DNA of 64,000 bases from an uncultured Gammaproteobacteria bacterium. Its GTDB lineage: Bacteria; Patescibacteriota; Microgenomatia; Levybacterales; GWA1-39-11. Every line of letters begins with the position of its first letter. Position 1 is the first letter of the stretch. Made by a program: the position numbers and the translations under genes. Below, piece after piece: positions 1 through 53,785 of this stretch. Location: the NCBI GenBank assembly GCA_964425075.1, contig CAYRKM010000001.1, positions 601,827 through 665,826 of the forward strand. The letters are read 5' to 3'. The notes beneath the pieces were generated by a model that was given only the letters and a program-made list of their open reading frames with translations, was not told the origin of the DNA and searched no databases.

Positions 1-921
1 ATTGTTGGAAAAAGAGGCATCTTTCTAAGAGCATCAATAATTATTACAATTATTTGTTTTGTTTGTATTTTATTGTTCAGGTTTAAACCCTCCATTGAAT
101 TTACTGGTGGTTCACGTCTCGAAGTATTGAGTGCACAAAAAATAGATATTGCAAAAGTTGAGCAAGTACTTGAAAAGAACAATATAAATGTAGTAACCAT
201 ACGTGAAAATAGTGATAAAGACATTACCATAAGAACCGATACAATCTCGGATAAAGAGAAAAATGACGCTGTTAAGAAACTCAATGATTCGGGTCTTAAG
301 GTACAAGAAAAGAGCTTTGAAACATTGGGACCCACGATTGGAGCAGAAACTCGCAACAATGCTTTAAAGGCAGTTGGAATTGCAATAATTGCAATTACTC
401 TTTATATAGCATTTGCATTTAGGCAAGTTTCTAAGCCTGTATCATCATGGAAGTTTGGAGTTTCCGCAATAATTGCATTAATTCACGATGTTTTAATTGT
501 CCTTGGAACATTTGCAATACTTGGTCATTTTGCTGGAGTTGAAGTGGACACTTTGTTTATTACCGCGGTTTTGACAATTATGGGTTTTTCAGTTCACGAT
601 ACCATAGTGGTATTCGATAGGATTCGCGAAAACCTTGTAAAAAACGTAAGACATTTATCCTTTGAAGAGGTGGTTAATAATTCATTTAATGAAACACTTG
701 CTCGCTCACTCAACACGTCAGTGACAGTGGTTTTGGTGCTGTTAGCTTTACTTTTGTTTGGAGGGGAGTCAACTAGATGGTTTATTGTAGCTTTTATGGT
801 TGGTATGATTGTGGGAACATATTCTTCGATTTTTATTGCCTCCTCAATTTTAGTTGAATGGTATAAATTAGACGAGCATGGAGGATTTAAAAAATTAAAA
901 TTTCTTAAAAAAAGAGGTTAA
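1..921 (+). CDS. secF: Protein-export membrane protein SecF (5' partial; frame open to window start, track ORF begins at TTG 73)
   Basis: KPSIEFTGGSRLEV motif and multiple C-terminal TM helices typical of SecF; in-frame upstream TM segment with no stop back to position 1. Confidence 0.75.
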   Translation: MVGKRGIFLRASIIITIICFVCILLFRFKPSIEFTGGSRLEVLSAQKIDIAKVEQVLEKNNINVVTIRENSDKDITIRTDTISDKEKNDAVKKLNDSGLKVQEKSFETLGPTIGAETRNNALKAVGIAIIAITLYIAFAFRQVSKPVSSWKFGVSAIIALIHDVLIVLGTFAILGHFAGVEVDTLFITAVLTIMGFSVHDTIVVFDRIRENLVKNVRHLSFEEVVNNSFNETLARSLNTSVTVVLVLLALLLFGGESTRWFIVAFMVGMIVGTYSSIFIASSILVEWYKLDEHGGFKKLKFLKKRG

Positions 922-1367
922 GCCAGCTTTTCTCTAACAAGTTTTGAAACTAATTGCCCGTCTGCTTTGCCTTTTGTTTTTGGCATCAAAGCTCCCATGA
1001 CCTTTCCCATGTCAGAAATTGTTGTTGCCCCAGTTTCAGAAATTGCTTCTTCTATCAATTTTGTTAATTCTGCCTCTGACATTTGTTCTGGTAGATATTC
1101 CTGAAGTATTACTAACTCCCTTTTTTCCTTATCAGCAAGTTCTTGTCTTTGGCCTTTCTCATAGAGCTCAATTGATTCTCGACGCTTTTTAATTTCTCTT
1201 CCAACTACTTCAATAACGTCCTCATCTGTTGCAGTATATCCTGCGCCACCTTTTTGTATTTCGTGATATTGAATCGCTGACTTTAACATTCTAATGACAG
1301 ATAATTTTTCTTCGTCTTTTGAACGCATTGCATCAGCTAAATTTTCTTGAATTTTATCTTTTAACAT
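918..1367 (-). CDS. GatB/YqeY domain protein
   Basis: MLKDKIQENLADAMRSKDEEKLSVIRMLKSAI...EYLP pattern matches YqeY/GatB C-terminal domain family. Confidence 0.8.
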   Translation of the reverse strand: MLKDKIQENLADAMRSKDEEKLSVIRMLKSAIQYHEIQKGGAGYTATDEDVIEVVGREIKKRRESIELYEKGQRQELADKEKRELVILQEYLPEQMSEAELTKLIEEAISETGATTISDMGKVMGALMPKTKGKADGQLVSKLVREKLA

Positions 1368-1382
1368 AACAACAATTATACC

Positions 1383-2870
1383 CTACTTATTTAATTCCTC
1401 CAAACGTGATAGCAAATACTCTCTTGTATTTCTTGAAAGATCTTCATCAACTTCTTCAAAGAGTTTTTGTAAAATCTCTCCAATTTTTTTTCCTGGTGGA
1501 AGTTTTAATTCTCTCATTATGTCATTTCCGTCAATTGCCAAGTCATTAATTGAAAAAGGTGGATTGAGTTCTTTCTCAATCTTTTCTTTAAATTGTTTGA
1601 GTCGCCAGCTCTCAGCAGTTTTGGTTCCGCTACCAAGTCTATCGCCAATTCGAAGGTCTATCATATCAGTTACATTCTCAAGCTCTACGCGTCTTATAAA
1701 GCGTCTTACTGCACTATCTGTAATATGCTCATCAACCGTGAACATGTGCCATCTTATGAGAGTGTATAATTTTTCTTTCTGTTTTTTAGAAAGTCTTAGA
1801 CGGTCTGCAATAATTTGCGAAAGCTTTGCTCCTTCAACTTCATGGTTATAGAAGATTACATACCCCTCGTTATCAGTAGAGGCAATATACGGTTTACCAA
1901 CATCATGAATTAGGGCAGCAAATTTAACTAATGGGTCCTCTGAGGGACAATATTTTAAAGACAGTAGATTATGAGTAAACACATCGCTTGTGTGATGCCT
2001 GCCAGGACGCACCTGAGAAACTCCTTTTCCTTTCGAGAGCTCCGGAAGGATTATATCAAGAAGTCCAACTTCATCAAGCAAAAGCATTCCATCATATGCA
2101 TTTGGAAGGCTTAGAATTCTAAATAGTTCGTCGCGTATTCTCTCGTTTGATACGTGGGAAATGAGCGACGCATCATTTTTGATTGCAGATAATGTTTTCT
2201 CTTCAATCGTAAAGCCAAGTTGGGTTGTAAAGCGAATTGCTCTTAAGAGCCTAAGAGCATCTTCCTTAAAACGTTCATCGGGATTGCCAACTGCCCGAAG
2301 TATTTTATTTTGAAGGTCTTTTTGTCCATTTACCAAATCAACGACTTCAGCGTTGTTATCTTTATCCAGTTTTATTGCAAGAGCATTTACGGTGAAGTCT
2401 CGTCTTTTGACATCCTCCTCAAGGGTAGTTCCCCATTCAACTTTTCCAGGGTGTCTAAAGTCAGTGTATCCATTCTCTGTTCTAAAAGTTGTAATTTCTG
2501 CATATTCTTTTCCGGATTCATTTGGAGTGTTGTACTTAACCCCCACAGTACCAAATGAATTATCATCACTCGCTAATTCATTTGTAGTGTTGTACTTAAC
2601 TCCCACAGTACCAAATGAATTATCATCACTCGCTAATTCATTCGGAGTATTGTACTTAACTCCCACAGTACCAAATGAATTATCGTAGAAAGAGTCAGGG
2701 AAAACTTGTTGAATTTGCTCAGGAGTGGCGTTAGTTGTCATGTCCCAATCAGTAACTTCATGAGAGAGCAAGAGGTTTCGTACGCACCCACCCACAAGAT
2801 ACACTTCATATCCTGAGTCAGTTAATTTTCTATAAATTCTTACTACCTTTTCAGGTATATTTTTTTGCAT
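1383..2870 (-). CDS. cca: CCA tRNA nucleotidyltransferase / polyA polymerase family with HD domain
   Basis: N-terminal LVGGCVRNLLL head motif, RRDFTVNA, C-terminal HD (HDVGKP); contains 3x in-frame 20-aa repeat insertion. Confidence 0.8.
   Translation of the reverse strand: MQKNIPEKVVRIYRKLTDSGYEVYLVGGCVRNLLLSHEVTDWDMTTNATPEQIQQVFPDSFYDNSFGTVGVKYNTPNELASDDNSFGTVGVKYNTTNELASDDNSFGTVGVKYNTPNESGKEYAEITTFRTENGYTDFRHPGKVEWGTTLEEDVKRRDFTVNALAIKLDKDNNAEVVDLVNGQKDLQNKILRAVGNPDERFKEDALRLLRAIRFTTQLGFTIEEKTLSAIKNDASLISHVSNERIRDELFRILSLPNAYDGMLLLDEVGLLDIILPELSKGKGVSQVRPGRHHTSDVFTHNLLSLKYCPSEDPLVKFAALIHDVGKPYIASTDNEGYVIFYNHEVEGAKLSQIIADRLRLSKKQKEKLYTLIRWHMFTVDEHITDSAVRRFIRRVELENVTDMIDLRIGDRLGSGTKTAESWRLKQFKEKIEKELNPPFSINDLAIDGNDIMRELKLPPGKKIGEILQKLFEEVDEDLSRNTREYLLSRLEELNK
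2514..2686. repeat. 60-bp tandem direct repeat (~2.9 copies) inside cca coding region, in frame
   Basis: Units at 2521-2580, 2581-2640 and partial 2641-2685 nearly identical; encodes DNSFGTVGVKYNTPNELASD x3. Confidence 0.9.
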
Positions 2871-4550
2871 GTGATATTATTAGTTAATCAAAAAAAGTAT
2901 ATCATGAAACGCTGGAATATATTACAAAACAAACCACTTTCAACAAGTAAGGAAATAGTAGATATCCTTCTTAAAAATCGTAATATTGGTAAAAATGAGA
3001 AAGCAGAATTTTTACATCCCAATACCCAAACCATTATTCTAGAAAATGTTGGTCTCGAAAGAAAGGAATATAAAAAGTTTGAAAAAAGAATTAAATCTGC
3101 CATCAAGGATAATGAAAAAATTATTGTGTATGGTGACTATGATGTTGATGGAATAACTGGAAGCGCAATATTGTTTGAAACACTTTATTCATCTACCAAA
3201 CAAGTTACTGCATATATTCCAGGTAGAGTCGAGGAAGGATATGGTCTGTCTATGAAAGGAATTGACAATGTTTTAGAAAAATATCCTGACGCAAAATTAA
3301 TAATAACCGTTGATAATGGAATTGTTGCAAACAGTGCAGTTGATTATGCGAATAAAAAAGGAATTGACGTTATTATAACTGACCACCATGCAAAAGGAGA
3401 AAAATTACCCGAAGCATTTTGTATTCTTCATACGACTCAACTTTGTGGTGCAGGGGTTGCTTGGGTGATAGCAAAAGAAATGAAATTCGAATCAGATGAA
3501 AAGATCCATCAAAAACTGGAACTTGCAGCACTTGCAACAGTGGCAGATCTCGTACCTTTAATTGGGGCAAATAGAGCAATAGTGAAAGAGGGATTGGAGG
3601 TTCTTAAAAAAACTAAGCGTTTGGGTCTTAAAGAATTATTTAAACACGCAAGAATTGATTTAAATTCAATTTCCGTATACACAATTGGACATCAAATTGC
3701 ACCCCGGCTTAATGCCTCAGGAAGACTTACGCATGCACTCAACGCACTAAGACTTTTGTGTACAAAAGATCCTGAAAAAGCCACAAAGTATGCAAAGATG
3801 CTAGATGATACCAATCGTGACAGGCAGTTTCTCACTGAAGAAGCAGTGCAGCATGCAAAATTACTTGCGCTGGAGCATAAGTTGAACACTAAAATTATGC
3901 TTGTTTCACATAATTCATACAACCAAGGAATAATTGGTCTTGTTGCGTCGAACTTGGTTGAAAGTTATTACAGACCATCTTTTGCAATATCAATTGGGGA
4001 GGATGGGATATCAAAAGGTTCAGCGAGGTCAATTAGTGGTGTAAATATAGTTGAAATGTTACGAATGGTTTCTCATATTTTGGATGAAGTTGGAGGGCAT
4101 CCGATGGCAGCAGGATTTAGCTTAAAGACTGAGAAAATTGAGGAATTGCATATAGCTTTAGCAAAAATTGCAGAAAGATTAGTTACTGATGAGGTTGTTG
4201 AAAGAGTTTTAAGAATTGATGCTTTACTCAAGTTTGAATTGTTAGATAAAAGTTTGTTCAAAAATTTGCAAAGCCTTGCTCCTTTTGGAATGGGAAATCC
4301 TGAGCCAGTTTTTGCGACAGAAAAAGTAACGGTGGAGGAATGTAGAAAAATCGGTAGAGAAGGAAATCATCTCAAGTTGATTGTTTCAAAAGACGGGAAC
4401 AAATTTGATGCTGTGGGTTTTGGACTGGCAGATAAATTCGAAATTTCGAGTGGTGACACCATAGATGTCGCATACACAATTGACGTAAACGAATGGAATG
4501 GAAAGACTACTCTCCAGTTGAAAGTAAGGGACTTGAAAATTAAAGAATAG
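2865..4550 (+). CDS. recJ: Single-stranded-DNA-specific exonuclease RecJ (start may be Met14 near 2904)
   Basis: DHH family motifs (YGDYDVDGITG, ITDHH), DHHA1-like C-terminal region GGHPMAAG. Confidence 0.85.
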   Translation: MHVILLVNQKKYIMKRWNILQNKPLSTSKEIVDILLKNRNIGKNEKAEFLHPNTQTIILENVGLERKEYKKFEKRIKSAIKDNEKIIVYGDYDVDGITGSAILFETLYSSTKQVTAYIPGRVEEGYGLSMKGIDNVLEKYPDAKLIITVDNGIVANSAVDYANKKGIDVIITDHHAKGEKLPEAFCILHTTQLCGAGVAWVIAKEMKFESDEKIHQKLELAALATVADLVPLIGANRAIVKEGLEVLKKTKRLGLKELFKHARIDLNSISVYTIGHQIAPRLNASGRLTHALNALRLLCTKDPEKATKYAKMLDDTNRDRQFLTEEAVQHAKLLALEHKLNTKIMLVSHNSYNQGIIGLVASNLVESYYRPSFAISIGEDGISKGSARSISGVNIVEMLRMVSHILDEVGGHPMAAGFSLKTEKIEELHIALAKIAERLVTDEVVERVLRIDALLKFELLDKSLFKNLQSLAPFGMGNPEPVFATEKVTVEECRKIGREGNHLKLIVSKDGNKFDAVGFGLADKFEISSGDTIDVAYTIDVNEWNGKTTLQLKVRDLKIKE

Positions 4551-5070
4551 TCAACGGAATATTGAGTTGCATACATAATTCTATCTGTGCAGTTTCAGTA
4601 GGCAGTAAATTAACAGATCCATCAGATAGAGTTTCAACAGTATTATTTTCGCAGCCTTGAATTACCCTTCCTCCATGTCTTGTGCTGTATTCTAGTAGGG
4701 GAATAAGTGTTTCATTTTCAGGGTAGTCCTCAGTGACATCAACCACTGCCTCTGTTAACTCATCATCAAGGGCGCCATCATCAATGGTTCCGTCAGGACG
4801 GTAGGTAGTATCTCTGTGAACATCAAGATGCGGCAATTTAGGTCTAATTGCGTCAATTCCTATACCACCACTTGGTTTCCCGCCAGACTGAATTCTTGTT
4901 CTTGCTAAATGAGTCTCAATAACAAATGATGTTGCACCAGAGTCATGTAATATTTCGTTAATTGTCATATTTTTAACCCTTTCTATATCTGCCTGGACCG
5001 CCAGGAATTCCATGTTTTGAAACATGATTGCTCCAAGGTTTTCCTTGTGATTTGCCTCCAACAGGTTCAA
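4540..5070 (-). CDS. Hypothetical protein
   Basis: ORF only; overlaps next ORF in a different frame. Confidence 0.3.
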   Translation of the reverse strand: MNLLEANHKENLGAIMFQNMEFLAVQADIERVKNMTINEILHDSGATSFVIETHLARTRIQSGGKPSGGIGIDAIRPKLPHLDVHRDTTYRPDGTIDDGALDDELTEAVVDVTEDYPENETLIPLLEYSTRHGGRVIQGCENNTVETLSDGSVNLLPTETAQIELCMQLNIPLTIL

Positions 5071-5338
5071 GTATTGGTTCTGAAGTTATAGTAGGTTTAA
5101 TTGGGGGTTCAAATTTTGGCTTTGACTGAGCTGCCTTTTTTAGATCCTCCTCTGTTGCAGGTTTGATTTCAAAACCCCCATCTCGAGCGATGACAGCCAC
5201 TGGCTTTTTGCTTCTCTGCGCCATAAGTGATGCTACATCATGCAACTCCCTATCTCTTGTGTCATCCTGAGGCACATCAGTTCTAACTGCCTCATTTGGT
5301 TTGACTATTTCTTTTACTTCAATACCTTCTTCATTCAT
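4973..5338 (-). CDS. Hypothetical Pro/Lys-rich protein (possibly N-terminal part of a frameshifted gene continuing in 4540..5070)
   Basis: ORF only; 98-bp out-of-frame overlap with downstream ORF suggests frameshift or miscalled start. Confidence 0.25.
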   Translation of the reverse strand: MNEEGIEVKEIVKPNEAVRTDVPQDDTRDRELHDVASLMAQRSKKPVAVIARDGGFEIKPATEEDLKKAAQSKPKFEPPIKPTITSEPILEPVGGKSQGKPWSNHVSKHGIPGGPGRYRKG

Positions 5339-5350
5339 ATTTTTTGCCCA

Positions 5351-5386
5351 AAAAAAACTCCCTTTTTTAGGGAGTCGTGTTTTTCT
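5351..5386. terminator. Intrinsic-terminator-like hairpin flanked by A-tract and T-tract (bidirectional)
   Basis: aaaaaaaACTCCCttttttaGGGAGTcgtgttttt; 6-bp GC-rich stem with oligo-A upstream and oligo-T downstream. Confidence 0.45.
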
Positions 5387-5557
5387 AAAACTTTTTCACA
5401 CGTCTCCCCTAGCCTCTAAAGGCTTGGAGGGAGATAATAATATTCACGTGAGCGAAAAGTTTCATAACAATAAGAATTATATGTTCATGAAAACATTGTT
5501 GTCAAGTAGACTTTTTGAGGTGAAATTACCTTATTTCTATGATATGATAGCAAAAGA

Positions 5558-6913
5558 ATGGAAAAGAGAATATTAACAAAAGATTGTCTTGATAAGGTTG
5601 GCGAAACAGTCATGCTAGCCGGATGGATAGAAAGAGTGCGTTCACACGGAAAGATTGCTTTTTTTGACCTCCGAGACCGAAAAGGTACTCTTCAAGTTGT
5701 AGCTTTAACCCCTGAGACAATTACATCTGTAGAAAATGTTTCACCTCAAACCGTTGTTTCAATAACTGGGAAAGTAAAGGAGAGGGGAGAAAAGTTTGTT
5801 AACAACAATATAGAGCTTGGTGGAATCGAAGTAGAGCTTTTGGAGCCTTTAGAAATTCTTTCGGTTGCGGAAGAGATGCCATTTGATATGGGAGGAGTTG
5901 AGTTAAATTTACAACTGCCAACACTGCTTGATTATCGAGCACTAACATTGAGAAATGATAAAATTGCCAACATTTTTAGAGTGCAAGCAGCTGTTCTTAA
6001 AGGATTTAGAAAAGCTTCAAAAAAATTAGGAGCGGTAGAAATTGTTGTTCCTACAATTTCGGCTTCAGCAACTGAAGGAGGAGCTGAGGTTTTTTCCGTT
6101 GATTATTATGGATACAAAGCATATCTAACCCAAAGTCCTCAGCTTTACAAACAAATGATGGTGCCAGTTTTTGAAAGAGTGTTTACGATATCTCATGCAT
6201 ATAGGGCAGAGCCTTCGGTTACAACCCGTCATCTTTCAGAAAATACTCAAATGGATATGGAAATTGGATTCGTGGATTTTAATGAACTATTAAACATATT
6301 AGAACAAAACATAACCTCAACCCTAAAATATGCAGAGGAAAAATGCGAGAAGATTTTAAAAGAATATAACATTGAACCTATGGCTTTTGGAAGCATACCA
6401 CGATTAACTCTTGCTGAGGCACAAGAAATTATTTTTAAGGAATTTGGAAGGGACAGCCGTGGTGAGAAGGATTTAGCTCCACAGGATGAGATAGATATTT
6501 CAAAATGGGCATTGGACAAGCACAATTCCGATCTTGTTACAATTACTCATTTCCCAACTAAAAAAAGAGCATTTTATACAATGCCCGATCCAGAAAACCC
6601 TGAATTAAGTTTGTCATTCGATGTTTTATTCCGTGGAGTTGAGATATCGAGTGGAAGTCAGCGAATTCATGAATACGCTGACTTAGTAGCTGCAATTAAA
6701 GACAGAGGAATGGATCCGAACAACTTCAAATTGTATCTTCAAGCTTTTCAGTATGGCATGCCACCAGAGGGTGGATTTTCATTTGGTCTTGAAAGAATTA
6801 CAATGCATATATTGGGACTTTCTAATGTGAGGGAAGCCTCACTTTTCCCAAGAGATATGGAGCGCGTTGATGAAAGACTCTCAGTTATCCAGCCAAAAGA
6901 AGATAAAAAATAG
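5558..6913 (+). CDS. aspS: Aspartate--tRNA ligase, archaeal/eukaryal type (likely non-discriminating)
   Basis: N-terminal OB fold; class II motifs; LTQSPQLYKQ and FPRD signatures typical of archaeal-type AspRS rather than AsnRS. Confidence 0.8.
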   Translation: MEKRILTKDCLDKVGETVMLAGWIERVRSHGKIAFFDLRDRKGTLQVVALTPETITSVENVSPQTVVSITGKVKERGEKFVNNNIELGGIEVELLEPLEILSVAEEMPFDMGGVELNLQLPTLLDYRALTLRNDKIANIFRVQAAVLKGFRKASKKLGAVEIVVPTISASATEGGAEVFSVDYYGYKAYLTQSPQLYKQMMVPVFERVFTISHAYRAEPSVTTRHLSENTQMDMEIGFVDFNELLNILEQNITSTLKYAEEKCEKILKEYNIEPMAFGSIPRLTLAEAQEIIFKEFGRDSRGEKDLAPQDEIDISKWALDKHNSDLVTITHFPTKKRAFYTMPDPENPELSLSFDVLFRGVEISSGSQRIHEYADLVAAIKDRGMDPNNFKLYLQAFQYGMPPEGGFSFGLERITMHILGLSNVREASLFPRDMERVDERLSVIQPKEDKK

Positions 6914-49466: not shown

Positions 49467-49537
49467 CTGGGAGTCAGGGATTTGAACCCCAATAAACAGA
49501 TCCAGAATCTGTTGTCCTACCATTAGACGAACTCCCA
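49467..49537 (-). tRNA. tRNA-Gln (anticodon CUG), U1-A72, discriminator G, CCA not encoded
   Basis: Manual cloverleaf: acceptor TGGGAGT/ACTCCCA, D stem GTCT/GGAC, anticodon stem ACAGA/TCTGT with loop TTCTGGA, T loop TTCAAAT. Confidence 0.7.
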
Positions 49538-53591: not shown

Positions 53592-53785
53592 GAGTTTGGT
53601 GTGGGTTTGGGTTTCGTCGTAGCATTAAATCTGTGACCCGTAGGAGAGTCGAACTCCTCTTACTAGGATGAGAACCTAATTTCATCGCTACCTTGATGCA
53701 AGCATCAAGGGTAACCAATAGAATGTGACCCAAACGGGTTCGGAACCATATAGGCCTTATAGCGGTTCTTTGGACTGTCTCACCT

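What the first reader, a model, noticed from the sequence alone, without database searches (positions are those of the whole stretch)
2514..2686. In-frame 60-bp tandem triplication inside the catalytic head of the CCA-adding enzyme
Three near-identical 60-bp units insert DNSFGTVGVKYNTPNELASD x3 into an essential housekeeping enzyme. The units differ by a few substitutions, so they are not an assembly artefact of identical copies. Copy-number variation here would be a contingency-type polymorphism in a tRNA-maturation enzyme.
Basis: seen in the sequence. Interest (0 to 1): 0.5.

Follow-up and report, generated by a model that had tools for sequence, protein, structure and literature searches.

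The report
Triplicated strand module in CCA-adding enzyme
A candidate-phylum bacterium's essential tRNA CCA-adding enzyme carries two extra in-frame copies of a 20-residue piece of its catalytic core; this is a real, lineage-specific tandem duplication in an insertion-tolerant loop, not a genetic switch.

Summary
TRF finds a 60-bp period, 2.8 copies and 95% matches at 2516-2684. [quoted passage not shown]

Each unit encodes the beta-turn (DNSF), the following strand (GTVGVKY) and most of the hairpin loop. That loop leads to the strand inferred to carry the third catalytic carboxylate. The net insertion is two units (40 aa), not three.

Two k=31 contigs of run SRR14271372 match the window at 100% identity. 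They stop exactly where a de Bruijn graph of an array of three or more units must branch.

The five closest relatives (85-88% identity) have one copy, and the window nests inside that clade. The gain therefore happened in situ.

Other Levybacteria carry older two-copy versions, decayed remnants, or unrelated insertions of up to about 45 aa in the same loop.

AlphaFold models the rest of the enzyme confidently and the extra copies as a low-confidence loop.

The most likely reading is slippage or unequal recombination in a tolerant loop, with the enzyme still functional. A contingency locus is not supported.

Two points remain open: the remodelled linker (LASD versus SGKE), and apparent purifying selection on the second strand in the older duplicates.

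The parts
1383..2870 (-). Gene for a class II CCA-adding enzyme (tRNA nucleotidyltransferase) with a C-terminal HD domain, 495 aa. It is intact, with no frameshift or internal stop.
   Evidence: The ORF is listed. Pfam hits are PolyA_pol, PolyA_pol_RNAbd, HD and tRNA_NucTran2_2. The best NCBIfam hits are CCA tRNA nucleotidyltransferase equivalogs, below their cut-offs. AlphaFold gives pLDDT 87.5, and Foldseek's top hits are 6qy6, 1miv and 4x4w. Against P0001, dN/dS is 0.07.
2516..2684 (-). In-frame tandem array: period 60 bp, 2.8 units
   Evidence: TRF score 310 with 95% matches.
2625..2684 (-). Unit 1 (residues 63-82, DNSFGTVGVKYNTPNELASD). It is joined to the native upstream sequence FPDSFY and is inferred to supply the working beta-turn and strand.
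   Evidence: Translation is. In all two-copy relatives the first copy keeps DNSFGTVGV. AlphaFold places residues 68-72 in the sheet, but that placement is biased by the alignment.
2565..2624 (-). Unit 2 (residues 83-102, DNSFGTVGVKYNTTNELASD). This is the internal extra copy, flanked by linkers on both sides, and it carries the only amino-acid difference (Thr).
   Evidence: Sequence is. Residues 77-119 have pLDDT below 50.
2516..2564 (-). Unit 3 (residues 103-118, DNSFGTVGVKYNTPNE, plus 1 nt). It is partial and runs into the ancestral tail SGKE and the next strand.
   Evidence: Sequence is. The tail SGKEY matches the single-copy relatives (GKEY in P0003, EKGY in P0001).
2625..2636 (-). Linker 1, LASD (tta gcg agt gat)
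   Evidence: It is identical to linker 2, differs from the U3 tail at 8 of 12 nt, and has no other copy in the window.
2565..2576 (-). Linker 2, LASD (tta gcg agt gat)
2505..2516 (-). Tail after unit 3, SGKE (tcc gga aaa gaa). This is the ancestral end of the hairpin loop.
   Evidence: compared with P0001-P0005.
2673..2684 (-). Beta-turn element of unit 1 (DNSF). It is the counterpart of GEKH in the human enzyme.
   Evidence: hhalign aligns SFGTVGVKY with human KHGTITARL. The human sequence was verified against PDB entries 8cbm, 4x4w and 1ou5. GEKH is named as the beta-turn in PMC7730189, and R70W is placed in the beta-turn in PMC11784652.
2742..2792 (-). Motif A: GGCVRN (2775-2792) and the catalytic DWD (2742-2750)
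   Evidence: Translation is. D41, W42 and D43 are invariant in 121 sequences.
2481..2504 (-). Strand YAEITTFR with invariant E125, inferred to be the third catalytic carboxylate
   Evidence: By analogy with Glu74 of the A. aeolicus enzyme and Asp99 of the T. maritima enzyme (PMC3925840). This assignment is inferred.
2382..2480 (-). Flexible-loop region (TENGYTDFRHPGKVEW...) and motif B (RRDFTVNA, 2382-2405)
   Evidence: The role of the flexible loop comes from PMC7730189 and PMC3925840.
2229..2264 (-). Motif D, the nucleotide-templating EDALRLLRAIRF
   Evidence: E203, D204, R207, R210 and R213 are invariant.
1731..2003 (-). HD (HDIG) phosphohydrolase domain
   Evidence: Pfam PF01966 and TIGR00277. 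H292, H293, H322 and D323 are invariant.

Best explanation
The gene at 1383-2870 (minus strand) encodes a class II CCA-adding enzyme of a Levybacterium (Candidate Phyla Radiation).

A 60-bp unit has been tandemly amplified in frame, adding two extra 20-residue modules (40 aa). The unit encodes three things: the catalytic-core beta-turn (DNSF), the strand that follows it (GTVGVKY), and most of the hairpin loop. That loop leads to the strand with the third catalytic carboxylate.

The amplification arose in situ in this lineage, after it split from its single-copy closest relatives. The likely mechanism is slipped-strand mispairing or unequal recombination, in at least two steps:
1. A first duplication.
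2. A junction that became LASD instead of SGKE.
3. A second duplication of the unit that already carried the linker.

I infer that the enzyme still works. Copy 1, attached to the native upstream segment, would provide the beta-turn and strand. Copies 2 and 3 would be looped out between that strand and the YAEITTFR strand. In Levybacteria this site naturally tolerates insertions of many lengths and origins.

The array is a tolerated, mostly passive insertion, expected to decay or be deleted with time as in relatives. It is not a switch.

What is shown:
- the array itself;
- its position relative to the motifs;
- the intact motifs;
- the distribution among relatives;
- the variability of the loop.

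What is inferred:
- which copy sits in the fold;
- retained enzyme activity;
- the mutational mechanism.
For: - The array and its reading frame are confirmed.
- All class II motifs are intact and fall on invariant alignment columns. Pfam domains are present.
- AlphaFold gives mean pLDDT 87.5 and pTM 0.83. Only residues 77-119 fall below 50. Foldseek matches solved CCA-adding enzymes.
- Gene-wide dN/dS against P0001 is 0.07.
- The only Rfam-supported tRNA gene in the window (Gln, 49467-49537) lacks an encoded CCA, so CCA addition is needed. No second nucleotidyltransferase lies in the window.
- The unit maps to the beta-turn plus the next strand.
- Closest relatives P0001-P0005 have one copy. 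The clade of window plus P0001-5 has 100% bootstrap support, and P0001-5 alone has 0%. Flanking residues are P0001-like right up to the array.
- Synonymous divergence between units is 0.10-0.35, against 1.34 for window versus P0001. The array is therefore younger than that split, but not brand-new.
- Two-copy relatives always keep DNSFGTVGV in copy 1 and lose SFG in copy 2. P0042, P0062 and P0020 show partial deletion of the second copy.
- Loop length after FGTVG[VI] ranges from 7 to 52 residues (median 13) over 226 distinct homologous hairpins, against 53 in the window.
- Logan k=31 contigs break exactly where an array of three or more units predicts.
Against: - The array is 2.8 units, not 3.0. 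The internal linkers differ from the terminal tail at 8 of 12 nt while the cores differ at 2-3 of 48 nt. A simple clean duplication does not explain this.
- The linker EL-A-SD resembles the linkers of unrelated two-copy lineages (ELLSD, ELISD, ELLRD, ELSRN). That hints at constraint, or a shared origin, rather than passive junk.
- Substitutions among the window's units are 3 synonymous to 1 nonsynonymous (one-sided binomial p about 0.04 against an N:S ratio of 3.6).
- In older two-copy genes, copy 2 keeps DN + T[VI]GVK with pN/pS about 0.09. This is not expected for a purely looped-out spacer.
- Which copy sits in the sheet is not independently shown, because both AlphaFold alignments placed homologs on copy 1.
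- No activity data exist.
Confidence: 0.6

Rival explanations
1. The duplicated module is a selected, structured extension of the head domain. The extra strand(s) and acidic linkers would fold against the beta-hairpin near the tRNA 3' end and tune substrate binding, A-addition or product release. The module would evolve recurrently, or be retained, in Levybacteria.
For: - The unit contains the beta-turn region. This region positions the tRNA 3' end, and changes to it alter tRNA affinity in nematode enzymes (PMC7730189 and PMC12013499).
- Copy 2 of older duplicates conserves DN + T[VI]GVK (10 synonymous against 3 nonsynonymous differences, pN/pS about 0.09). SFG in the same copies is relaxed (pN/pS about 0.45).
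- The window's units differ by 3 synonymous and 1 nonsynonymous substitution.
- Linkers are similar across lineages that do not cluster once the hairpin is masked.
- The linker was remodelled at 8 of 12 nt while the cores stayed almost identical.
Against: - Each unit has net charge -2, which is the wrong sign for RNA binding.
- AlphaFold gives no confident structure for the extra copies in either the window protein or P0008.
- The second copy is partly deleted in P0042, P0062 and P0020.
- Most Levybacteria, and all five closest relatives, do without it.
- The substitution counts are very small.
Confidence: 0.2
2. The copy number in the window is an assembly error. The real genome would carry two units, or four or more, and the assembler traversed a repeat cycle the wrong number of times or merged strain variants.
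For: - A 169-bp array of 95-98% identical units is a classic problem for short-read de Bruijn assembly.
- The Logan k=31 assembly of the same run could not cross it.
- A four-unit array (U1-U2-U2-U3) predicts the same contig ends as three units.
- No reads could be mapped here.
Against: - Each unit carries its own markers (U1 aat+ccg, U2 aca, U3 ggg+cca), spaced 60 nt apart or less, so ordinary 150-nt reads can phase the array.
- Simple two-unit arrays would have been assembled straight through at k=31. The two tested two-unit strain mixtures predict contig ends different from those observed.
- Two-copy relatives were assembled independently in several samples: P0008 on 5 contigs and P0026 in 2 runs. 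Multi-copy states at this site are therefore real biology.
Confidence: 0.1
3. The insertion has disabled the enzyme. The gene would be a recently inactivated copy, with CCA addition carried out by another enzyme elsewhere in the genome.
For: - The insertion duplicates a catalytic-core element and lies two residues upstream of the strand inferred to bear the third carboxylate.
- NCBIfam equivalog scores fall below their cut-offs (268.9 against 290).
Against: - The reading frame is open over 495 codons with every invariant residue kept.
- The units have accumulated mainly synonymous changes.
- Homologs with comparably long insertions at the same site are widespread and conserved in synteny.
- No second nucleotidyltransferase lies in the 64-kb window, but the rest of the genome was not seen.
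Confidence: 0.05
4. This is a contingency (hypermutable) locus. Frequent gain and loss of 60-bp units would generate functionally distinct enzyme variants within the population.
For: - Direct repeats of 95-98% identity are substrates for slippage and recombination.
- Copy number differs among related species: 1, 2 or 3.
Against: - The units are in frame, so there is no on/off switching.
- There are only 2.8 units.
- The units have had time to accumulate 4 substitutions (dS 0.10-0.35). Frequent turnover would have homogenised them.
- It is the only such array in 64 kb.
- The gene class is untypical for contingency loci (my own knowledge of such loci).
- No same-species variant with another copy number was found.
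Confidence: 0.03

Closest known systems
Bacterial class II CCA-adding enzymes with solved structures (Planococcus halocryophilus 6QY6/6QXN, Geobacillus stearothermophilus 1MIV) and the HD-domain type of Escherichia coli Cca
   Same: The head, neck and body architecture is the same. Motif A (GGxVRx...DxD), the beta-turn, the flexible loop, motif B (RRDxTxNA) and motif D (EDxxRxxRxxRF) are all present, and there is an HD domain as in E. coli Cca.
   Different: The solved enzymes have one beta-turn and strand module and a 3-4-residue hairpin turn before the E-V-T-T strand. The window enzyme has three modules, with 53 residues between FGTVGV and E-I-T-T.
Beta-turn region adaptation in nematode CCA-adding enzymes (Romanomermis culicivorax; PMC7730189, PMC12013499)
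   Same: The same structural region changes: the stretch between motif A and the conserved E-I-T-T stretch. This region positions the tRNA 3' end.
   Different: In the nematode the change is by substitutions that add Lys and Arg and raise tRNA affinity. Here the change is a tandem duplication of the whole module, with net charge -2 per unit and no functional data.
Two-copy Levybacteria CCA enzymes found here (P0006, P0007-9, P0010, P0026, P0061, fragment P0121) and remnants (P0042, P0062, P0020)
   Same: The same module is duplicated at the same place. The unit is 19-20 residues, with an EL-x-(S/R)-(D/N) linker followed by DN.
   Different: These have two copies, not three. The copies are much more diverged (core DNA identity 21-30 of 33 nt, against 94-98% in the window), and copy 2 has lost SFG. 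P0061 has a different 45-bp unit. None is the window's closest relative.
Engineered tandem sequence duplications in T4 lysozyme (Matthews laboratory; from my own knowledge, not checked here)
   Same: A secondary-structure element is duplicated in tandem. One copy takes the native position and the other is looped out with little loss of fold.
   Different: Those are engineered helix duplications in a different fold. Here the duplication is natural, involves a beta-turn and strand, and is a triplication. Which copy is used is not known.
Contingency loci / coding VNTRs of bacterial surface proteins (from my own knowledge)
   Same: Head-to-tail in-frame repeats whose number differs between relatives.
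   Different: There are only 2.8 long units in a cytoplasmic housekeeping enzyme. No frame switching is possible, and there is no evidence of variation within a population.

Membership tests
Class II CCA-adding enzyme (tRNA nucleotidyltransferase, Pol beta superfamily) | Head domain with motif A, GGxVR(D/N)...DxD (two catalytic carboxylates) | tested here: met
   GGCVRN lies at residues 27-32 and DWD at 41-43. D41, W42 and D43 are invariant in 121 sequences. Pfam PF01743 scores 4.5e-33.
Class II CCA-adding enzyme (tRNA nucleotidyltransferase, Pol beta superfamily) | Third catalytic carboxylate on the strand after the hairpin | tested here: met
   E125 in YAEITTFR is invariant and aligns with the human F-E-I-T-T-L-R stretch. 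Its catalytic role is inferred from PMC3925840.
Class II CCA-adding enzyme (tRNA nucleotidyltransferase, Pol beta superfamily) | Motif B (RRDxTxNA) and motif D (EDxxRxxRxxRF), the protein-based nucleotide template | tested here: met
   RRDFTVNA lies at residues 156-163 and EDALRLLRAIRF at 203-214.
Class II CCA-adding enzyme (tRNA nucleotidyltransferase, Pol beta superfamily) | Flexible loop upstream of motif B. It is present in CCA- and A-adding enzymes and deleted in CC-adding enzymes. | tested here: met
   TENGYTDFRHPGKVEW lies between E-I-T-T-F-R and motif B. The role of the loop comes from PMC7730189 and PMC3925840.
Class II CCA-adding enzyme (tRNA nucleotidyltransferase, Pol beta superfamily) | Fold similar to solved class II enzymes | tested here: met
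   Foldseek against 6qy6 gives E 4.5e-19 and TM (target-normalised) 0.77. 1miv, 4x4w and 3h37 also match.
Class II CCA-adding enzyme (tRNA nucleotidyltransferase, Pol beta superfamily) | NCBIfam equivalog score at or above the curated cut-off | tested here: not met
   The best hit, NF009814, scores 268.9 bits against a cut-off of 290, in 3 stretches. TIGR02692 scores 265 against 438.8. The protein belongs to a divergent CPR lineage, and the match is split by the repeat.
Class II CCA-adding enzyme (tRNA nucleotidyltransferase, Pol beta superfamily) | Adds C-C-A to tRNA 3' ends (enzymatic activity and specificity) | not testable with these tools
   This needs a biochemical assay. The only indirect evidence is that the tRNA-Gln gene lacks an encoded CCA.
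In-frame coding tandem repeat (minisatellite-type duplication) | Head-to-tail copies, with a unit length that is a multiple of three, inside an open reading frame | tested here: met
   Period 60, 2.8 copies, no indels, and the ORF stays open.
In-frame coding tandem repeat (minisatellite-type duplication) | Copy number differs among orthologs | tested here: met
   One copy in P0001-5 and most others, two in P0006-10, P0026 and P0061, and three in the window.
Contingency (phase-variable) locus | A hypermutable short-unit tract whose length changes switch the reading frame or promoter spacing | tested here: not met
   The unit is 60 bp and in frame, so copy changes cannot shift the frame.
Contingency (phase-variable) locus | Copy-number heterogeneity within a population | not testable with these tools
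   No reads were available. Only one same-species source was found (SRR14271372), and its contigs break in the array.

The most novel reading that the evidence does not exclude
Levybacteria would have repeatedly evolved, or long retained, a duplicated beta-turn and strand module that forms a structured, selected extension of the catalytic head of the CCA-adding enzyme. The linker would have converged on EL-x-S-D-D-N, and the second strand would be kept under purifying selection. The extension would change how the tRNA 3' end is held during CCA synthesis. The window would show the youngest and largest (three-copy) stage of this process.
Probability: 0.2. Interest if true: 0.55.

Novelty: new variant of a known kind. 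Interest (0 to 1): 0.3.

Why it matters
CCA-adding enzymes are model template-independent polymerases, and their beta-turn region is known to position the tRNA 3' end. Natural enzymes carrying one, two or three copies of that module form a ready-made series. They could be used to test how much insertion the catalytic core tolerates, which copy of a duplicated strand a protein folds with, and how a loop insertion is born, remodelled and decays. If the extra copies turn out to be passive, the finding is an ordinary example of an insertion-tolerant loop in a fast-evolving CPR lineage.

Tried and rejected
**Searches that found nothing useful**
- The exact-protein look-up of the window enzyme found nothing on record.
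- An exact 41-mer across the unit junction found nothing in metagenome contigs.
- Protein-guided scans of GTDB species genomes and JGI metagenomes found no same-species locus. The best hits were 68% and 67% identical.
- An 81-aa query of the repeat region alone returned only one fragment, P0121.
- The HMMER scan of 1.84 billion representatives with the same region returned only unrelated periodic proteins and one CCA fragment. This shows no other deep lineage with the module multiplied. It cannot see variants hidden inside 50% clusters.
- A third homolog search with P0008 added no new two-copy proteins.
- A search for a source of the LASD linker elsewhere in the window found none.
- A search for a second nucleotidyltransferase in the window found none.
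- No literature on CPR CCA enzymes with this duplication was found.

**Analyses that could not decide**
- AlphaFold runs on the window protein and on P0008 could not decide which copy is used, or whether the extra copy is structured. Both alignments place homologs on copy 1.
- Pairwise BLASTP against the human enzyme mis-registered the beta-turn region. It was replaced by profile alignment.

**Ideas considered and rejected by reasoning only**
- Translational bypass: the array has no stop codon and no take-off context.
- Intein or intron: there are no such motifs, and the units are simple copies of the flanking sequence.
- The antisense ORF at 2353-2688 as a gene: it stays open only because the repeat lacks stop codons.

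**Origin of the two-copy lineages**
- A single ancient origin for all two-copy lineages could be neither supported nor excluded. Monophyly has 0% bootstrap support, and with the hairpin masked each lineage's nearest neighbours are single-copy. The linkers are nonetheless alike.
Full report
**1. Observation**

Tandem Repeats Finder reports one array at 2516-2684. It has a period of 60, 2.8 copies, 95% matches, no indels and a score of 310. It is the only array in the 64-kb window with a period above 22 or a score above 59.

The array lies inside the minus-strand ORF 1383-2870, which is 495 aa long. On the coding strand the units are as follows:
- U1 (2625-2684): DNSFGTVGVKYNTPNELASD
- U2 (2565-2624): DNSFGTVGVKYNTTNELASD
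- U3 (2516-2564): DNSFGTVGVKYNTPNE, which then continues as SGKE-YAEITTFR

Four sites vary among the units: gga/gga/ggg, aat/aac/aac, and two positions of ccg/aca/cca. Three of the changes are synonymous.

The description is therefore right, with two corrections:
- One unit is the native sequence, so the net insertion is two units (40 aa).
- The array is 2.8 units, not 3.0. Both internal tails are tta gcg agt gat (LASD). The tail after U3 is tcc gga aaa gaa (SGKE), which differs at 8 of 12 nt.

**2. Is the array real?**

The exact protein is not on record, but two neighbouring proteins are. The YqeY-like protein and RecJ each occur on one Logan contig of run SRR14271372. Those contigs are L169 (window 837-2571) and L170 (window 2655-6126). 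Both are 100% identical to the window, and both end inside the array.

I simulated a k=31 de Bruijn graph for several candidate arrays:
- The as-assembled U1-U2-U3 array predicts exactly the observed contig ends: '...gtgggagttaag' and 'gagtgatgataattc...gtgggg'.
- A four-unit array predicts the same ends.
- Two-unit arrays would be assembled straight through.
- Two tested mixtures of two-unit strains predict other ends.

That Logan uses k=31 is from my own knowledge. Reads of that run therefore contain a linker followed by both a 'gga' unit and a 'ggg' unit. This needs at least three units. Three versus four units cannot be settled without the reads.

**3. The gene**

Pfam finds PolyA_pol, PolyA_pol_RNAbd, HD and tRNA_NucTran2_2. 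The best NCBIfam hits are CCA tRNA nucleotidyltransferase equivalogs, though below their cut-offs.

Named homologs are from Candidatus Levybacteria/Levyibacteriota. The window has 36.5% G+C. Synteny (RecJ divergently transcribed, then cca and a YqeY-domain gene, with SecDF usually further downstream) is largely conserved.

All class II motifs are present and fall on invariant columns of a 121-sequence alignment:
- GGCVRN
- DWD
- E125 in YAEITTFR
- the flexible-loop region
- RRDFTVNA
- EDALRLLRAIRF
- the HD residues

AlphaFold2 gives mean pLDDT 87.5 and pTM 0.83. Foldseek matches solved class II enzymes, including 6qy6, 1miv, 4x4w and 3h37.

Against the closest relative P0001, dN is 0.09 and dS is 1.34. 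The only tRNA gene supported by Rfam (Gln, 49467-49537) is followed by CTG rather than CCA. No second nucleotidyltransferase lies in the window.

**4. What the unit is**

[quoted passage not shown] It lies between strands 3 and 4 of the head-domain sheet and binds and positions the tRNA 3' end. In the human enzyme it is GEKH, and the pathogenic R70W change lies in it (PMC7730189; PMC11784652).

I checked the human sequence against PDB entries 8cbm, 4x4w and 1ou5...[25 protein letters not shown]. A pairwise BLASTP alignment mis-registered this stretch. A profile alignment pairs the window's SFGTVGVKY with human KHGTITARL, and YAEITTFR with FEITTLR.

Each 20-residue unit therefore holds three elements:
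- the beta-turn (DNSF);
- the following strand (GTVGVKY);
- most of the hairpin loop that leads to the strand with invariant E125.

E125 is inferred to be the third catalytic carboxylate, by analogy with Glu74 and Asp99 of the Aquifex and Thermotoga enzymes (PMC3925840).

**5. Relatives**

The five closest proteins (P0001-P0005) are 85-88% identical outside the hairpin and have one copy. In 300 NJ bootstraps with the hairpin masked, the clade of window plus P0001-5 is recovered in 100% of replicates. P0001-5 without the window is never recovered. The flanks are P0001-like right up to the array. The extra units were therefore gained in situ.

Synonymous divergence between units is 0.10-0.35 on very few sites, against 1.34 to P0001. 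The array is younger than that split, but not brand-new.

Other Levybacteria carry older versions:
- P0006: DNSFGTVGVKFDNQKELLSD-DNPYGTVGVKF...
- P0007-9: ...KELISD-DNSSDTVGVKV...
- P0010: ...SELLRD-DNPPATVGVKS...
- P0026: ...KEISRS-DNSISTIGVKH...
- The fragment P0121.
- P0061, with a different 45-bp unit.
- P0042, P0062 and P0020, which keep the linker but have lost part or all of the second strand.

Core DNA identity between the copies is 30, 27, 26, 21 and 21 of 33 nt in P0061, P0008, P0006, P0010 and P0026. In the window it is 94-98%.

P0008 was assembled on five contigs, and P0026 in two runs. With the hairpin masked, each two-copy lineage's nearest neighbours are single-copy. For example, P0026 and P0048 are 90% identical with 100% bootstrap support. 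Monophyly of the two-copy set is never recovered. Copy number has therefore changed at least five times, by gain or by loss.

**6. The site tolerates insertions**

Across 226 distinct homologous hairpins, the stretch between FGTVG[VI] and E[VI]TT is 7-52 residues long, with a median of 13. In the window it is 53.

Several long versions are not duplications. They are in-frame G+C-rich perfect palindromes:
- CCTGCCTGCCGGCAGGCAGG, read as LPAGRQV.
- A GTCATTCTGG...CCAGAATGAC element, read as VILGxEVTPES...SGQARMT.

The window has none of these.

**7. Most likely mechanism**

The best-supported account is tandem amplification by slippage or unequal recombination in an insertion-tolerant hairpin of an enzyme that remains functional.

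Copy 1 most likely supplies the working beta-turn and strand, for two reasons:
- It is joined to the native upstream segment.
- In every diverged two-copy relative the first copy keeps DNSFGTVGV, while the second loses the otherwise invariant F/G.

Copies 2-3 would then be part of the loop. AlphaFold agrees: residues 68-72 are a strand and residues 77-119 have pLDDT below 50. In P0008, residues 77-96 are likewise below 50. This is not independent evidence, because the alignments put all homologs on copy 1.

At least two steps are needed. Both internal linkers are identical to each other and unlike the terminal tail.

**8. What does not fit a purely passive insertion**

- The linker differs from the ancestral tail at 8 of 12 nt, while the cores differ at 2-3 of 48 nt.
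- The linker resembles those of unrelated two-copy lineages.
- The window's units differ by 3 synonymous and 1 nonsynonymous change. The one-sided binomial p is about 0.04 against an N:S ratio of 3.6, ignoring transition bias.
- Pooled over five older duplicates, copy 2 versus copy 1 shows 10 synonymous and 3 nonsynonymous differences at DN+T[VI]GVK (pN/pS about 0.09). At SFG the counts are 9 and 11 (pN/pS about 0.45).

The counts are small, and the lineages may not be independent. They still leave room for a structured, selected extension.

Against that reading:
- Each unit has net charge -2.
- The second copy is partly deleted in some lineages.
- Most relatives lack it.

**9. Comparison with known systems, and verdict**

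The protein meets the sequence and fold criteria of a class II CCA-adding enzyme. Its activity is untested, and the curated NCBIfam cut-offs are not reached.

I found no report of a multiplied beta-turn and strand module. No other 50%-cluster representative carries one.

The closest functional precedent for change in this region is the nematode beta-turn adaptation, which works through basic substitutions.

The contingency-locus reading is not supported, for these reasons:
- The units are in frame.
- There are few copies.
- The units have diverged from each other.
- The gene is a housekeeping gene.
- No variant within a population was seen.

The verdict is a real, lineage-specific tandem triplication: a new structural variant of a well-known enzyme. 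It is of modest interest, mainly as a natural series for studying insertion tolerance and strand duplication in a catalytic core.

Noticed in passing
L089:1842-1861, L109:1734-1753, L127:1617-1636 and 1752-1771, L141:469-488 (related loci, not the window): In other Levybacteria cca genes, a perfect 20-nt G+C-rich palindrome (CCTGCCTGCCGGCAGGCAGG) sits in frame and is read as LPAGRQV. In the three genes whose hairpin sequence was read (L089, L127, L141) it lies just before the E-[IV]-T-T strand. L127 has a second copy further upstream in the gene. The peptide also occurs in P0068 and P0113. It looks like a small palindromic element inserted into coding sequence. None is present in the window.
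   Followed up: partly
L089, L123, L015 hairpin loops; protein fragment P0146: A second in-frame insertion family occupies the same loop. It is bounded by inverted repeats GTCATTCTGG...CCAGAATGAC and translates as VILGxEVTPES...SGQARMT. P0146 has a related SVIASSVERDEAISS stretch. This suggests mobile palindromic elements that survive inside this loop.
   Followed up: partly
window 53633-53706 (-): ARAGORN calls a tRNA-Glu(CTC) here. Rfam's tRNA model finds nothing at its gathering score, and the ends do not form an obvious acceptor stem. It is probably a false positive.
   Followed up: partly
window 49467-49537 (-): The tRNA-Gln(CTG) gene is followed by CTG, so the 3' CCA is not encoded and must be added after transcription.
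   Followed up: yes
window 2353-2688 (+): A 111-aa antisense ORF runs through the array (…NSFGVLYLTPTVPNELSSLA… repeated). It stays open only because the repeat has no stop codons on that strand, and nothing suggests it is a gene.
   Followed up: no
window 837-2571 and 2655-6126; L169, L170: The same organism is present in public run SRR14271372. Two Logan contigs are 100% identical to the window and break inside the repeat. No other sample in the collection carried these exact neighbouring proteins.
   Followed up: yes
window 73-4550; L082, L163-L168: Gene order around cca is largely conserved across Levybacteria. RecJ is divergently transcribed upstream. A YqeY-domain gene follows cca in most loci, sometimes with a NUDIX gene, and SecDF lies further on. 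L165 and L166 differ downstream.
   Followed up: partly
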